Shown here: positions 1 through 57,400 of the stretch, piece by piece
Layout: every line of letters starts with the position of its first letter
Position numbering within the stretch: position 1 is the stretch's first letter
Source: Ruditapes philippinarum
Lineage: Eukaryota
Direction of reading: 5' to 3'
DNA: 64,000 nt
Assembly (NCBI RefSeq): GCF_026571515.1
Contig: NW_026853013.1
Span: 62,001 to 126,000, forward strand
Made by a program: the position numbers

Positions 1-2311
1 TACGAAATAAGGGCCGCCGATAGGTTGTCAGACAAGCTATTAATTAATGACATTTAACATCGTTCTTGGAGTTATATATTTAATTAATTTATCTAAGGAA
101 ATATTTATTTTCCCGGAAAAATATCTCTGATTTTGCAAAGAGTCAAAAATGTATTGGACGTTATAATGACAAGAAATTATTTAAGAGTCTTCAGAGACTT
201 TAGAAGCAATAAATCCCATTAGGAATACCAAATAATTTTGATAAAGACTTACCTATAAAACATACAAGATCAAATGGTACACATTTATATCTATTCATTA
301 AACTCACATACATGAAAACTGTTTTTATTTGATTTTTTAAAAAATAGTTACCTTTTTTCACAAATACAGAAATTATTTCAGAAATTTTGTATAAAAGAAA
401 AAAAATTAACCTGTGTATCTACTTTTGTAGTCTATATCTACATAGGAAATAAATGGATTGCTCCTACTGTCTATATTTTAGAGGAATGTAATAAGCATTT
501 TGACAGGAGGTTTGTTTATCTCTTGCTAACTTTCATCAATATGTAGTAACTTAGTACTGTACACTGTACTCTCTTAAATATTCAATTTGTTTGCATTAAA
601 ATAATTCATTACATTCAACAGACTGCTTAATACAAATTATTAATTGAGCATTCGTTTCATGATATATTCTTTTCTACAATTCTGAAATTTTAACTTTTAA
701 GTTTTGATAAGTAAATACGTGTGTATGAAATTGAAACAGATTTGGACTTTTGTACACTCAATATATTTACCTACTCCTAAGATATTAACATAAAACAAAG
801 TAAAATGTCAGGTTTGGGGCTAGACTCTGTGAAATAGATTACACTTATGAATATAAATATTATATTTCTTTTATAGCATTCATTATAATTATGATAAGAT
901 CTATTTGTTAAACAATGATGATACATAAATAAACTATCAAATAATACTCGTGCTTTTTATCGTCCCCGTTTAGCGCAACGAAAATACACATGATTGTACT
1001 CTGTATTTACAGTTAAATTGTGAACGCATTTTGCCTCGTCATAACAACCAGTGATAATTCAACGTTATCAAATTATCATATTTGCAATTAAAGATAACAA
1101 ACACTGGATGCATGAAAGCTGTACGCACATATATATGTTGTATGTTTATTACCTTTTTACCTTTTTGCTGAAGAAGAAATGTGACAACATGAACGGTACC
1201 AATGCAGCTAGGAATTACACTGACTCGTTTTCAACAGTGGTTGTAATTGAGTCAATCGTTAGTTGTAGTTTATCTATTCTAGGATCATTCGCGATATTTG
1301 GATCTTATATTCTTCTACCGGAAATTAGAAATTCTACCAGGAAACTAGTCACGTGTCTTACAATAGCAGATTTTCTTACTGCATTAGGTAATATTTATGT
1401 TGTATATTCACTGGCTTGCTTTTTTTATTTAGTAATTCAAACGTACAGTAGCTGCAGTTGCAATTTAATAGGAAAACATACCCAAAACGGAAATACTCAA
1501 TAACAATAAAATCGCATTTTGCATTTGTAATTTCATGAGAAATAAATGAACACTAACATTCAACTGATGAATTTTAGACCTATGATGAACGTTTAATTTA
1601 CAATTAAGGCAGTGCTAAAATAGTTGTTAAAATTAATAAATATTGTTCCTTGATTGATTTAGGCGATATTTATATTCAACAGGAATCATTACATCAGCGA
1701 TTGCTCATCTAGTTGGTACACAAAAAGACGTGTGCAAAACACAAAGCGGAATAACAACATATTCTAGTCTCGTGTCATTCTTTCTTACTGTTGCCATTGC
1801 GATTCATATCTTTTCAACTGTAGTAAACAGAAACGATAAAACCTCATCGTGGCAATATCTCGTAATTACTAACATCATAAGCTGGTTATGTCCAGGTAAG
1901 TATAATAATCATATTATTTCTAATAATTTTATAAAAAATTGAAATTGCTCTTTGGACGGGAACGGGTGTAGAAACATCGACAGTTATCAATTCACTCTGT
2001 TGTTCGAGTTTTATAATTCCTCAACATATTATGGAGTATTTGTTAAAAATTATATCATTGAGGGTAACTTAAATAAATAAATTTGCAACATTGAAAATAT
2101 TCCGTTGCGATTTATGTCAAGTTATTCGTTAACGACCGTGGTAGTAGTATATAATACAATGTAGCGTTTGGGCTCCAAGCACTGGTTAGTATTTAATATT
2201 TGACAAGAAAATGAGCCATAAAGTAACTCAGATAGCCAATGGTGATAAAAACATAATTACTGAATTACGGTGATGAGTAGAAGACGACGATGGTGAGGAT
2301 AGTAATAATAG

Positions 2312-2355
<44 letters not shown>

Positions 2356-54400: not shown

Positions 54401-57400
54401 AAATCTTAGTACTAACGGGGAGCGAGATAGACTAGTTCCAGCTCTTGGAAACAACAATTCTGCAAACCACAGCTACATTGCAGCAGACGAAATACCGGAT
54501 ATGTCTTCCAGACGATATAAGTCTACAAACTCTTCTAGATCATTTGGCAAGTACTCCAGCATAAGCTCCGACAAAAATCACATTTTTTCTCTGGAGCATT
54601 CAGCTCAAGTTATATAACATGAATTCATTGCATACTGTTTACTAACATGCTTTCTGACAAGAACCGTGACCTGTATGATTTAGATGTAATGTTGATATGT
54701 GAAAACAATCAGTGCAATAACATTTCTGGTCCGAAAGATGATTTCTTAGTTGATATGATATGTTATTTGTATTGTTTATTTCTATGTGAACTCTTGTTGC
54801 TAGATATGTTTTGGACTAAGACACGCAGTTAACATGACCTCAATATGCAAACATGAAATCCTAAAATGTATGCTTAAATACAGTCGAAACTGTCTTAAGC
54901 AGCCAGCCAAGGGATGCAGTCATTTTGGCTGCTTAAGACAGGTGGCTGCTGAATGGAGGATCCAGTTTTTATCCAAACATATTATTCATTTCTTTGTAAA
55001 ATAAATCTGATTTAAGTATAAATAAACCAGTCTGATTCATCATCATCATCATCATCATCATCAGTTTTTTAACCATTTACAAACGTATGCCTTTAATGGT
55101 TTAACATGTACACAATCCTTCCAACATATAAAGCTTTACATGAATGTAACACAGATAAACAAATGCACTCACGATTTATTATGTCAATAATTGAAACTAT
55201 TTATCCCATAAAAATATCTTCTTGCACAATAATTTAAAATGCGTAATATTTTTTTCACAAAAAAAGTATGACAGTTTCTTTTTCTAACTTTTGATCAATA
55301 GAATATTGTGTACACGTCATCTAAGTGTCGGCACTTCCTTTGATGTTTCGGATTAAAACAGCAGGGCTACAGGTTTGTAAACATCAAAGATTCCTTTGAA
55401 GAGACCGCTAGTTACCTCTTAGAGGTCATCTAGTGTGTAAACTTAATGGGTGTGATTTAACAGTGACCTCATTTGCAATTTTATTTTCACACATGGAGCA
55501 TGTGTTTTTATGAATTTATTACTGAGGAATTTAGACAATCGGCGATGTAATTCATTTTCATTTCTTTGGTAAGTACCATGTACGCACAAAATTTATCTGA
55601 ATCGGGATTAACTTAAATTTCTTTCTGCCATCGACAATGCATTGTTTTCTTATTTCTTTTTTTCTTAAAATCGGTAAATTGAAAAATAAAAAACTAGCGT
55701 ACAGTAACTCAAAAGAACGAATTGCAAGTGCGTTGAGACGTTCCAAACGTTTGTAATTACGACACGGATGAGCAATTATGCAAACTTCTTGAAATGTTGT
55801 GGTTTTATGTTAATATCTAGCACCTGACAAGTAGCTTTTGTTAATCCGTGACACGTGTCATCTTTGAAAATAAATGACAGAATATTGCCTGGCCGTTTCA
55901 CCTGGCTGACCGCAGAAGATTGCCTGGCCGTTTCACTTGGCTGACCGCTTAAGATGACCGACTTTAAGATTTGGGAAGCATTTTAGGTGACCGTTGACCG
56001 CGGACAGCAGGTGACCGTTGAACAGATGTATAAAATAGAGTGGTTTTCGTCGGGAGCGTCACAAAATGGCCGTTTAGGTCAGGTGACCGCCGATAAGAGG
56101 TGACCGTTAGTACAGTTTCGACTGTACTAACGTAACAAACAAATGCACATAAAATCTTAAATTAAAAGAAAAAATATTAAAATGTACAATCATTCTTAAA
56201 GATGGAGAAACCTGTGCAATGACGATTACTACGCAGCAAGACGAATCGTAAAGGCTACTTTTAAATAATGATTGATACAAGTTTGCTTCTTTAAAAAGAA
56301 GCATGCGAGAGGTCTTTTTGCTGCTGTGGAAGATTTGTTTAATTTGAAAATATTTGGAAATAAGACACAACGAATGGTTATTAATTACAATTATTTAACA
56401 AAATATAATTTATTATATAAATTGAATATATAGTATCATAATGAAAGTTTGTTTACACTTCATTTTTTAATGTTTTGAAAGATTATATGCTGGAGAAATG
56501 GATTTTTTTCCTTGACGCATTAGGGATACTTTTTATACAAAGGGAACTAAATTTAAAATAAATGATATGTATATTAAAAGTAGTATCAAAACAAAAGTTT
56601 CTTGTAAAATTCAATCAGCAAATTTTCGGTTTATGTTTTGGTAAGTATATGAAAACATTTCCTCTACGTTTTCCAAAACGGGCATAAAGTATGTTAATTA
56701 GATAATTTTAAGTCCAGGATTTACATAAAAATGTTTTATATCATTTGATTGGAATAAACAGAATATAAAGCTGCATGCCTTCAACCACAATATTTTAAGA
56801 AAATCAAACGTGTGTCAAATTTGTGCCACTTGCGCCAAAAAATCCCCGTTGCGTTACTTAGTCATACCAGTTCAAAAAGAACTTTGTACAAGCGGTACAA
56901 TTTATCGGAACAAGATATAAAAACGCTATTAAGAAAACAATACTGTAATCGATTTATACAATTTAAAAGATTAAAACGGAATGAAACATCCACAACGTAA
57001 ATAATATTTTCCGATTTTTCTTTGTACCGATCGATTCGTTCACTTCGATATTCCGTAACGTACCGGAAAACGGTGTTTAGCTAGGTTTTCAAAAAGGTCA
57101 ATTTTTCGTTTAAATTAAGTCGTATTTTGAAACGGAGCATGCGCAAAACAAATTTTGTAGACTGCTCCTAATGGTTTTAAGCTGTAAATGACATTCATTT
57201 ACTACAATCAGGTACGCAAAAATGGATGCCGCCAGCAATCAGTCTGAACACTATGGAGAGGTCTGATGACCTCTCCAATAAATACAGTGCCTATGGTAAA
57301 TTATTTGATAACATCTACCATGTTATATGCAAGTCACTTACTTAACACTTTTGCACTGCATAATCATCATCTATGAAGGCAATAAACATTTTGTTGACTG

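What the first reader, a model, noticed from the sequence alone, without database searches (positions are those of the whole stretch)
1189..54617. Tandem expansion of GPR157-like (class E-type) receptors in two subfamilies
Seen: five same-strand paralogs with identical exon architecture and conserved TM cores. N-termini, extracellular loops (SDKTENVGTGTWCW versus RDGHSSVNTGPWCW) and C-tails diverge, and some copies are pseudogenising. Known: GPR157 is an orphan receptor, generally single-copy in vertebrates. Inference: this birth-and-death pattern resembles chemosensory or immune receptor families, so it may be a lineage-specific receptor family built on a non-rhodopsin scaffold.
[Added by the scan's program, not by the reader: the finding's places include an assembly gap (unread letters, written N; its length is only estimated) at 26579 to 26709, 33780 to 34355. 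Whether the letters on both sides are continuous or in frame is not known: test that first.]
Basis: partly seen in the sequence, partly recalled or inferred. Interest (0 to 1): 0.65.

Follow-up and report, generated by a model that had tools for sequence, protein, structure and literature searches.

The report
Clam GPR157-like receptor gene cluster
Five neighbouring copies of an orphan GPR157-type membrane receptor gene sit in a Manila clam genome piece, one clearly decaying; this is a modest clam-lineage gene-family expansion, not a new kind of receptor.

Summary
The window carries five same-strand, four-exon genes (A1, A2, B1, A3, B2) with identical exon sizes and phases. They fall into two subfamilies, A and B.

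Single exons hit no receptor family in Pfam. I did not search joined exons. The full-length database twins pass Pfam Dicty_CAR, and all copies carry the published GPR157 ECL2 WCW motif.

The array arose in three steps:
- an old A/B split;
- an A1 duplication (dS about 0.36);
- a recent duplication of a 24-26 kb A+B cassette (dS 0.14 for both pairs).

B1 is decaying: a 4-bp frameshift plus a 7.5-kb transposon in its last exon. A2 has lost a canonical splice acceptor.

Selection is purifying throughout (omega 0.2-0.5). Extracellular parts and tails evolve faster, with no sign of positive selection.

Related clams have their own small arrays.

Neither gap lies in an exon or intron. Gap 1 sits in the transposon that splits B1's last exon. 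Gap 2 separates the two cassettes, so a misplaced haplotype is not excluded.

The parts
1189..3899 (+). Gene A1, intact, 342 aa. Exons 1189-1387, 1683-1895, 2431-2627, 3480-3899.
   Evidence: Splice sites and phases. All four exons are 100% identical to NCBI protein P0002. The NCBI model starts 27 codons further upstream, at 1108.
7058..9595 (+). Gene A2, 346 aa as annotated. Exons 7058-7262, 7645-7857, 8355-8551, 9170-9595. The intron 1 acceptor is CTG instead of CAG (7643-7644). An in-phase AG lies 15 nt downstream (7658-7659).
   Evidence: All four exons are 100% identical to NCBI protein P0001.
16204..23643 (+). Gene B1, decaying copy. Exons 16204-16389, 16939-17151, 17997-18193, 23152-23643. 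It has a net 4-bp deletion at about 16333-16336 that shifts the frame before TM2, a 4958-bp intron 3, and a last exon truncated by a transposon.
   Evidence: frameshift relative to B2. (insertion). NCBI protein P0010 reads through the shifted frame.
23617..31113 (.). 7.5-kb inserted element with 21-26 nt terminal inverted repeats, flanked by a 4-bp GTAC duplication (23613-23616 and 31114-31117). It contains assembly gap 26579-26709 and supplies the last 8 codons and the stop of B1.
   Evidence: I1 arms 23612-23637 / 31093-31118. No Pfam domain in its ORFs.
31114..31180 (+). Displaced original 3' coding end of B1 (about 21 codons plus stop), cut off by the insertion.
   Evidence: tblastn of P0005 residues 355-375 to 31115-31177, 85.7% identity. 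Alignment A7.
37590..39999 (+). Gene A3, intact, 346 aa. Exons 37590-37794, 38167-38379, 38719-38915, 39574-39999.
   Evidence: Best database match is P0001 at 93.6-97.1% per exon. No exact database twin was seen.
51384..54617 (+). Gene B2, intact, 375 aa. Exons 51384-51576, 52130-52342, 52850-53046, 54093-54617.
   Evidence: P0005 is 375 aa, from a 1469-nt contig that is shorter than the 3234-bp gene. It matches the four exons at 92.5-100% and reads across all three predicted junctions.
5979..32265 (+). Cassette copy 1 (A2 + intergenic + B1 + downstream).
   Evidence: Self-blastn: colinear blocks of 77.6-95.7% identity to 36671-60202.
36671..60202 (+). Cassette copy 2 (A3 + intergenic + B2 + downstream). 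It carries an extra 6 kb at about 41750-47716.
   Evidence: dS is 0.141 for A2-A3 and 0.142 for B1-B2.
33780..34355 (.). Assembly gap in the spacer between the two cassettes. Not inside any gene.

Best explanation
This is a piece of the Manila clam (Ruditapes philippinarum) genome. It carries a tandem array of five paralogous seven-transmembrane receptor genes of the GPR157 family.

Shown:
- Each gene encodes a bare 7TM protein of 342-375 aa with no extra domain. It has a short glycosylatable N-terminus, a cysteine at the top of TM3, and a second cysteine inside the family's WCW motif in a predicted ECL2 hairpin. A short helix 8 and a variable tail follow.
- The array grew in three steps. An old A/B split predates the Ruditapes-Mercenaria divergence. 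A duplication then gave A1 versus A2/A3 (dS about 0.36). Most recently, one duplication of a 24-26 kb A+B cassette gave equal dS of 0.14 for A2-A3 and B1-B2.
- Decay followed. B1 has a frameshift before TM2 and a transposon in its last exon. A2 has lost the canonical acceptor of intron 1.
- A1, A3 and B2 are intact, and the copies evolve under purifying selection.

Inferred:
- The two cysteines form the usual GPCR disulfide.
- The intact copies are working G-protein-coupled receptors for unknown extracellular ligands.
- By analogy with mouse GPR157, they most likely signal through Gq, IP3 and calcium.
- A and B types differ in ligand preference and tail-dependent regulation, because N-terminus, ECL1-3 and the tail hold most of their differences.
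For: Identity of the locus: A1, A2 and B1 exons are 100% identical to NCBI proteins named GPR157-like [Ruditapes philippinarum].

Family:
- Full-length database twins P0001 and P0002 score 28.1 and 29.5 bits on Pfam Dicty_CAR (cut-off 21).
- All 22 hits that carry a source name (of 31 listed) are bivalve proteins; 19 are called GPR157-like, 2 GP157-like, and 1 'hypothetical protein'.
- The best ESM-Atlas cluster is 'G protein-coupled receptor 157' (score 0.97, 214 of 256 features).
- The published GPR157 motifs (passages read) are present as KLVTCLT[IV]AD in TM2, WCW[LI] in ECL2, and QAFCN... in TM7.

Fold: the AlphaFold2 model has pLDDT 73.7 and pTM 0.73, with seven helices, an ECL2 hairpin and helix 290-296. 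All listed Foldseek PDB matches are GPCRs.

History: cassette blocks; dS and omega values; tree with venerid clade 99/97 and Ruditapes A plus Mercenaria P0003/P0004 98/92.

Decay.

Expression and splicing of the B2 type: P0005 comes from a 1469-nt contig.

Gq coupling of mouse GPR157: abstract of PMC4855140 in the listing, and a passage of PMC11843928.
Against: - No single exon reaches any GPCR family in Pfam (150 + strand ORFs; 12 exact exons at E up to 10) or in the PDB. Family placement therefore rests on database proteins, not on a search of my own spliced models.
- No named vertebrate GPR157 was available, so orthology to it is untested. The nearest named non-mollusc is a coral GPR157-like protein at 29% identity.
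- TM2 and TM7 motifs match only with substitutions (LV for LL, T for S, A for G).
- Coupling, ligand and expression of A-type copies are not shown by anything here.
- The two cassettes are joined across a gap.
- The Dicty_CAR match covers only the first half of the profile (positions 18-163 of 305).
Confidence: 0.8

Rival explanations
1. Assembly artefact. Cassette 2 (A3 + B2) is the alternative haplotype of cassette 1 (A2 + B1), scaffolded in tandem across gap 33780-34355. The true locus would then hold three genes (A1, A2/3, B1/2), with B1 a null allele.
For: - The only join between the cassettes is a gap of estimated length.
- Gene order and orientation are identical in both cassettes.
- Manila clam heterozygosity is high, 3.7-4% by k-mers (passage of PMC9803972).
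- P0005 differs from B2 by up to 7.5% in exon 4, so B-type variants within or near the species can be quite divergent.
Against: - dS is 0.14 in both gene pairs, and non-coding identity is 77.6-95.7%, with three indels of 4, 6 and 7.5 kb. That is several times the genome-wide heterozygosity.
- The 2.3 kb upstream of cassette 2 (34356-36670) shows no similarity to the sequence upstream of cassette 1 (3900-5978). The two downstream flanks do not match either. A misplaced haplotype would be expected to match in both places.
Confidence: 0.15
2. A diversifying sensor family. The copies are environmental chemoreceptors or immune receptors whose extracellular loops are driven apart by positive selection, as in classic birth-and-death families.
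For: - Tandem array, a pseudogene, and two loop types.
- Extracellular parts differ more than TM cores: A1-A3 18 of 84 against 5 of 147, p = 3.5e-5; A3-B2 44 of 82 against 46 of 147, p = 0.0011.
- Separate species-level clusters in Mya and Dreissena.
- An oyster GPR157-like transcript was reported up in parasite infection (passage of PMC9892467).
- A GPR157 homologue was enriched in activated sea-anemone immune cells (passage of 10.1101/2025.01.24.634691).
Against: - Omega of extracellular parts is 0.20-0.43, never above 1.
- Extracellular divergence is not higher than intracellular-loop divergence (p = 0.16 and 0.27).
- The fastest part is the cytoplasmic tail (omega 0.6-0.8).
- Copy numbers are single digits.
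- The pairwise method used here cannot see selection at a few sites.
Confidence: 0.2
3. Not GPR157 proper. The clam clade is a separate cAMP-receptor-like (Dicty_CAR) lineage that automatic annotation merely labels 'GPR157-like'. The true orthologue would be the more distant type represented by Mercenaria P0031.
For: - The 27-row clam clade excludes Mercenaria P0031 (on another chromosome), mussel, oyster and unionid GPR157-like proteins at 98/98.
- The Pfam hit is to Dicty_CAR.
- Atlas clusters ranked 2-5 are cAMP-receptor-like at the same score, 0.97.
Against: - P0031 and the oyster and mussel proteins are themselves 37-38% identical to A2. They share the TM2, TM7 and (except P0031 and P0029) WCW motifs in alignment A5. 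The clam clade therefore looks like a duplicated offshoot within the same family.
- The top Atlas cluster is chordate GPR157.
Confidence: 0.15

Closest known systems
Vertebrate GPR157 (orphan receptor; mouse protein couples to Gq-IP3-Ca2+ and sits in primary cilia of radial glia)
   Same: - Bare 7TM protein of about 330-375 aa with no added domain.
- WCW motif in ECL2, related TM2 and TM7 motifs, and a predicted helix 8.
- Pfam signature of Dicty_CAR, with 7tm_2 in relatives.
- Best Atlas cluster.
   Different: - Here there are five tandem copies in two subfamilies, one of them a pseudogene.
- The motifs carry substitutions.
- Identity to a vertebrate protein was not measured, because no named one was available.
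GPR157-like gene groups of other heterodont clams (Mercenaria mercenaria, Mya arenaria, Dreissena polymorpha)
   Same: - Same clade (98/98) and the same protein length.
- Several proteins on one chromosome: Mercenaria 5, Mya 5 (two nearly identical, probably isoforms), Dreissena 3.
- Mercenaria P0003 and P0004 group with the Ruditapes A type (98/92).
   Different: - Mya and Dreissena copies form their own species-level clades, so they duplicated independently.
- No clear Mercenaria partner of the B type was resolved.
- I could not see their genomic spacing.
Dictyostelium cAMP receptors / cAMP-receptor-like proteins (GPCR class E, Pfam PF05462)
   Same: The Pfam Dicty_CAR model is the only family that the full-length proteins pass. 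Atlas neighbours ranked 2-5 are of this kind.
   Different: - The match covers only profile positions 18-163 of 305, at 28-30 bits.
- There is no evidence of cAMP binding.
- A recent survey treats GPR157 as a family of its own that merely resembles cAMP and adhesion 7TMs.
Adhesion GPCR 7TM domains (ADGRG2/ADGRG4)
   Same: Best Foldseek matches in the PDB: E 5e-7, TM-score 0.56-0.58 by query and 0.70-0.76 by target.
   Different: - 19-20% identity, and no GAIN domain or long ectodomain.
- Class A receptors score almost the same, so this says only 'GPCR fold'.

Membership tests
GPR157 family | Seven transmembrane helices with no additional domain | tested here: met
   The AlphaFold2 model of P0001 (= A2) has helices 18-44, 51-79, 82-116, 125-148, 175-208, 223-251 and 259-287. 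No other Pfam domain was found. All listed Foldseek matches are GPCRs.
GPR157 family | ECL2 motif WCW[I/V/L] (10.1101/2025.04.15.649019, passages read) | tested here: met
   WCWL in A1, A2 and A3; WCWI in B1 and B2.
GPR157 family | TM2 motif LLxxLS[L/V/I]xD | tested here: inconclusive
   The window has LVTCLT[I/V]AD in A1, A2, A3 and B2: same spacing, with L to V and S to T. In B1 it is destroyed by the frameshift.
GPR157 family | TM7 motif QGxxNxIxF | tested here: inconclusive
   A type QAFCNFILV, B type QAFCNAVLF. Q and N are kept, G is replaced by A, and I and F are only partly kept.
GPR157 family | Helix 8 directly after TM7 | tested here: met
   Predicted helix 290-296 follows TM7. The block mean pLDDT for residues 291-300 is 69.
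GPR157 family | At least 30% identity over at least 70% of mouse GPR157 (criterion used in 10.1101/2025.04.15.649019) | not tested
   No named vertebrate GPR157 came back. Unnamed hits of about 335-350 aa were not fetched.
GPR157 family | Falls inside the metazoan GPR157 clade in a rooted tree | tested here: inconclusive
   The tree of 34 proteins holds only bivalve, one coral and unnamed sequences, with no cAR or adhesion outgroup. The clam clade is separate from mussel, oyster and unionid GPR157-like proteins.
Pfam PF05462 Dicty_CAR (class E-like) | Score above the curated cut-off of 21 bits | tested here: met
   P0001 scores 28.1 and P0002 scores 29.5 bits, over profile positions 18-163/164 of 305. 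Single exons give no hit. B1's protein P0010 carries no precomputed Pfam domain.
Birth-and-death sensor families (chemosensory or immune type) | Tandem arrays with pseudogenes | tested here: met
   Five tandem copies. B1 is disrupted three ways and A2 has lost an acceptor.
Birth-and-death sensor families (chemosensory or immune type) | Large, fast-turning-over copy number | tested here: not met
   Five copies in the window. Only 3 Ruditapes protein clusters appear among the 31 hits, all from one contig, and other clams have 3-6 named proteins each. A genome-wide count was not possible.
Birth-and-death sensor families (chemosensory or immune type) | Positive selection on ligand-facing parts | tested here: not met
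   Extracellular omega is 0.20-0.43. Extracellular against intracellular divergence is not significant. Only pairwise counts were made, not site models.

The most novel reading that the evidence does not exclude
Heterodont clams carry a clade of GPR157-derived receptors, separate from the conserved GPR157-like gene. This clade has been duplicated independently in venerids, Mya and Dreissena. It serves as a small, evolving set of sensors for waterborne or infection-related cues, with the A and B loop types recognising different ligands. That would make it a sensory or immune receptor family built on a non-rhodopsin scaffold that is still an orphan in vertebrates.
Probability: 0.2. Interest if true: 0.6.

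Novelty: new member of a known kind. Interest (0 to 1): 0.35.

Why it matters
GPR157 is an ancient eukaryotic receptor whose ligand is still unknown. A lineage that keeps several diverged, intact copies side by side offers natural variants of the extracellular face. Those variants could help in finding what this receptor type binds.

For clam biology it adds a small candidate set of signalling receptors. Their oyster and sea-anemone relatives have been seen to respond to infection.

In itself, a tandem duplication of a GPCR gene in a bivalve genome is ordinary. Three of the five genes are already in the public annotation.

Tried and rejected
- Exon-by-exon Pfam gave no receptor family: 150 + strand ORFs of 50 aa or more, and 12 exact exons at E up to 10. 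The only hits were weak chance matches to DUF families.
- The PDB by sequence gave nothing with A3 exon 4. With P0001 it gave nothing below E = 0.36. No solved relative exists in that copy.
- Pfam on 147 further ORFs (137 minus-strand and 10 remaining plus-strand), and on 36 ORFs of the inserted segments at E up to 1, found no transposase or other domain. Rfam and tRNA scans were empty.
I therefore could not see whether A3 is one of the 3 members of the P0001 cluster.
- The profile search did not return any named vertebrate GPR157, so the orthology test stayed open.
- I considered the 7.5-kb block after B1 to be a misassembly around gap 1. I rejected that because it has terminal inverted repeats and a 4-bp target duplication, and the cut-off end of the exon is found beyond it.
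- I considered A2 dead because of its CTG acceptor. I left this open because an in-phase AG lies 15 nt downstream, and 3 of A2's 6 exon-2 differences from A3 fall in those first codons.
- Literature searches found no paper on a mollusc GPR157 expansion: GPR157 + bivalve, 'coupled receptor 157', GPR157 + mollus, and cAMP receptor-like + GPCR + bivalv + expan. One search was badly framed and uninformative.
- Supplementary File 23 of 10.1101/2025.04.15.649019 lists GPR157 homologues and may include bivalve copies. Supplements are closed, so I did not see it.
No related eukaryotic loci could be fetched.

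
Full report
WHAT IS THERE

The window is AT-rich (32% G+C) and has two N runs, 26579-26709 and 33780-34355. The A form has its WCW at 2505, 8429 and 38793; the B form at 18071 and 52924. All are on the + strand.

Comparing all ORFs with each other shows four sets of five related ORFs, with E-values from 1e-27 to 7e-99. Reading the junctions gives five genes of four coding exons each. 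Introns are GT-AG in phases 1, 1 and 0. Exon 2 is 213 nt and exon 3 is 197 nt in every copy. I call the genes A1, A2, B1, A3 and B2; coordinates are in the parts list.

tblastn with one A-type and one B-type protein finds no further copy or relic exon, except one displaced fragment described below. Nothing else recognisable is in the window:
- no Pfam domain in 150 + strand ORFs, 147 further ORFs, or 36 ORFs of the inserted segments at relaxed threshold;
- no Rfam family;
- no tRNA.

THE GAPS

Neither gap is inside an exon or intron, so no frame has to be carried across N.

Gap 1 lies in a 7.5-kb block (23617-31113) that is absent from the B2 copy. The block has terminal inverted repeats (23612-23637 and 31093-31118, 88% complementary) and a GTAC duplication on both sides. 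The last 21 codons of the original B1 exon 4 are found just beyond it, at 31115-31177. It is therefore a transposon insertion into the coding end of B1, not a misjoin.

Gap 2 lies in the 4.4-kb spacer between two copies of a large duplicated block. The adjacency of those copies thus depends on a scaffold join. I did not fill or look up either gap.

WHAT THE GENES ARE

Single exons are too short for these weak 7TM profiles. Pfam gave no receptor family, and the PDB gave nothing for exon 4 of A3.

[quoted passage not shown] Two are from Ruditapes philippinarum. Per-exon comparison shows:
- A1 = P0002, A2 = P0001 and B1 = P0010, each 100% in all four exons;
- A3 is closest to P0001 (93.6-97.1%);
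- B2 is closest to P0005 (92.5-100%).

The window is therefore Manila clam, and three of the five genes are already annotated.

P0005 is an unnamed protein from a 1469-nt contig. That is shorter than the 3234-bp B2 gene, and the protein reads across all three predicted junctions. This is indirect evidence that a B2-type gene is transcribed and spliced as modelled.

Using those database proteins as returned:
- P0001 and P0002 pass Pfam Dicty_CAR (28.1 and 29.5 bits, cut-off 21).
- No solved structure is related by sequence.
- The ESM Atlas puts a chordate 'G protein-coupled receptor 157' cluster first, followed by cAMP-receptor-like clusters at the same score.
- An AlphaFold2 model of P0001, made with a 12-row alignment, has pLDDT 73.7 and pTM 0.73. 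It shows seven helices, a hairpin in ECL2 and a short helix after TM7.
- Its PDB neighbours are adhesion receptors ADGRG2/G4, then many class A receptors, at TM-score 0.5-0.6 by query. This confirms a GPCR fold and little more.

A recent survey (10.1101/2025.04.15.649019, passages read) describes GPR157 as an ancient eukaryotic family. Its features are no extra domain, a helix 8, and three motifs: TM2 LLxxLS[LVI]xD, ECL2 WCW[IVL] and TM7 QGxxNxIxF. The clam copies have WCWL or WCWI exactly. They have LVTCLT[IV]AD and QAFCN... at the other two places, so those motifs are met only with substitutions.

I could not obtain a named vertebrate GPR157. The profile search reached a coral GPR157-like protein at 29% identity but no vertebrate one. 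I did not fetch unnamed hits of vertebrate-like length. Membership of the GPR157 family is therefore well supported, but orthology to the vertebrate gene is untested.

HISTORY OF THE ARRAY

Self-comparison of the DNA shows that 5979-32265 and 36671-60202 are colinear copies of one block. The block carries an A gene, about 6 kb of spacer, a B gene and downstream sequence. Identity is 77.6-95.7%. Three large differences separate the copies:
- 6 kb extra at about 41750-47716 in copy 2;
- about 4 kb extra in intron 3 of B1;
- the 7.5-kb transposon in B1.

I computed Nei-Gojobori counts per exon and added the counts. B1 comparisons omit exon 1, which is frameshifted.

| Pair | dS | dN | omega |
|---|---|---|---|
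| A2-A3 | 0.141 | 0.028 | 0.20 |
| B1-B2 | 0.142 | 0.065 | 0.46 |
| A1-A2 | 0.364 | 0.115 | 0.32 |
| A1-A3 | 0.356 | 0.111 | 0.31 |
| A versus B | saturated | about 0.40-0.44 | not computable |

Equal dS in the two recent pairs fits one duplication of the whole cassette.

A maximum-likelihood tree of 34 proteins used 22 NCBI-named and 12 unnamed proteins. I left out 15 of the 49 hits because they were unnamed or fragments. I also left out every representative that was not also among the hits. The tree shows:
- All Ruditapes and same-chromosome Mercenaria copies form a venerid clade (99/97).
- The Ruditapes A type groups with Mercenaria P0003 and P0004 (98/92).
- Mya and Dreissena copies form their own clades (98/90 and 97/92).
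- A 27-row clade (98/98) holds the venerid, Mya and Dreissena proteins plus unnamed ones. It excludes Mercenaria P0031 (another chromosome), mussel, oyster and unionid GPR157-like proteins.

Several long branches make the deep part of the tree unreliable, and the tool warns of this.

An unnamed 846-aa representative (P0032) consists of three receptor units in a row. It is most simply a fused gene model of another tandem array.

STATE OF THE COPIES

A1, A3 and B2 are intact.

B1 has three defects:
- A net 4-bp deletion in exon 1 relative to B2. It replaces TM2, including the family motif, with out-of-frame residues. The NCBI model P0010 simply reads through it.
- An intron 3 of 4958 bp, against 1046 bp in B2.
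- The transposon that removes the last 21 codons.
Its omega against B2 (0.46) is twice that of the A2-A3 pair.

A2 has CTG where the other four copies have CAG at the intron 1 acceptor; the NCBI model uses it anyway. An in-phase AG lies 15 nt downstream. Three of A2's six exon-2 differences from A3 fall within the first three codons of exon 2, inside that 15-nt stretch. This would fit a shifted acceptor, but it is inference only.

LOOPS AND SELECTION

I used the model's helix boundaries to classify residues.

| Comparison | Extracellular | TM | Intracellular loops | C-tail |
|---|---|---|---|---|
| A3 vs B2, residues differing | 54% | 31% | 40% | 72% |
| A1 vs A3, residues differing | 21% | 3% | 13% | 50% |
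| A1 vs A3, omega | 0.43 | 0.08 | 0.12 | 0.74 |

Extracellular against TM is significant (p = 3.5e-5 and 0.0011). Extracellular against intracellular loops is not (p = 0.27 and 0.16).

The pattern is what relaxed constraint outside the helices gives in any GPCR, and nothing here points to positive selection. Pairwise counts cannot detect selection at a few sites.

IS THE DUPLICATION REAL?

A misplaced haplotype would reduce five loci to three. Two things argue against this:
- The divergence between cassettes (dS 0.14, non-coding identity mostly 86-92%, three multi-kb indels) is several times the 3.7-4% heterozygosity estimated for this species (passage of PMC9803972).
- The flanks outside the two cassettes do not match each other.

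Two things argue for it: the only join is a gap, and bivalve haplotypes can be locally very different. I put this at about 0.15.

FUNCTION

Nothing here measures function. Mouse GPR157 is an orphan receptor that couples to Gq and raises calcium through IP3 (abstract of PMC4855140 in the listing; passage of PMC11843928). The most likely reading is that the intact clam copies are Gq-type GPCRs for unknown extracellular ligands. A and B types would differ in the extracellular face and in tail regulation.

Two passages hint at an infection link for invertebrate relatives:
- an oyster GPR157-like transcript (PMC9892467);
- a sea-anemone homologue in activated immune cells (10.1101/2025.01.24.634691).
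Both concern more distant family members and are leads only.

NOVELTY

The genes and their name are in the public annotation. The family and its motifs are described. Tandem GPCR duplications are common in molluscs (my own knowledge).

In this library I found no paper describing an expansion of GPR157-type genes in bivalves (searches; one search was uninformative). The supplementary homologue list of the survey paper could not be seen.

I rate this a new member of a known kind, of moderate-to-low interest.

Noticed in passing
window 23617-31113: Non-autonomous DNA-transposon-like element of 7.5 kb. It has 21-26 nt terminal inverted repeats, a 4-bp GTAC target duplication, and subterminal CGTGCG/CGTTT-rich short repeats at both ends. 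No transposase ORF was found. Assembly gap 1 lies inside it.
   Followed up: partly
window 41750-47716: A 6-kb segment present only in cassette 2. It contains two direct repeats of about 460-500 bp (41756-42216 and 45664-46169, 76% identity) and many short minus-strand ORFs without any Pfam match. It may be a decayed LTR-type element.
   Followed up: partly
window 18344-23102: About 4 kb of extra sequence in intron 3 of B1 relative to B2. It includes tandem repeats of 97 bp (21209-21403) and 286 bp (21404-21994). A 240-bp stretch (20977-21215) is repeated in inverted orientation at 26064-26294, inside the transposon.
   Followed up: no
window 57500-59799: Downstream of B2 there is an inverted duplication (57500-58008 against 59799-59286, 94.8% identity) around a 430-bp palindrome (58120-58548, 83%).
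   Followed up: no
window 2312-2355: (TGA)n microsatellite of 14.7 units in intron 2 of A1. It gives the poly-Asp stretch in the long ORF that runs into exon 3. It is not coding in the model.
   Followed up: yes
window 1108-1188: The NCBI model of A1 (P0002) starts 27 codons upstream of the ATG shared with A2 and A3. The hydrophobic extension has no counterpart in the other copies, whose frames are closed by a stop just upstream.
   Followed up: partly
window 9170-9595 vs 39574-39999: dS between A2 and A3 is 0.057 in exon 4 but about 0.20 in exons 1-3. Cassette identity also varies from 77.6 to 95.7% along its length. Gene conversion or uneven constraint is possible.
   Followed up: no
C-terminal tails: A1 about 3870-3890, A2 about 9560-9580, A3 about 39965-39985; relatives P0016, P0018: A short basic motif ending in YGS (SRRYGS in A2 and A3, RRSYGS in A1, RRRYGS in Mya, KRKYGS in Dreissena) survives in otherwise unalignable tails. 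The B type has SRSFGKY. It is possibly a phosphorylation or sorting signal.
   Followed up: no
protein P0032 (unnamed representative): An 846-aa predicted protein made of three consecutive receptor units, about 45% identical to the window's copies. It is most simply a fused model of a tandem triple in another genome.
   Followed up: partly
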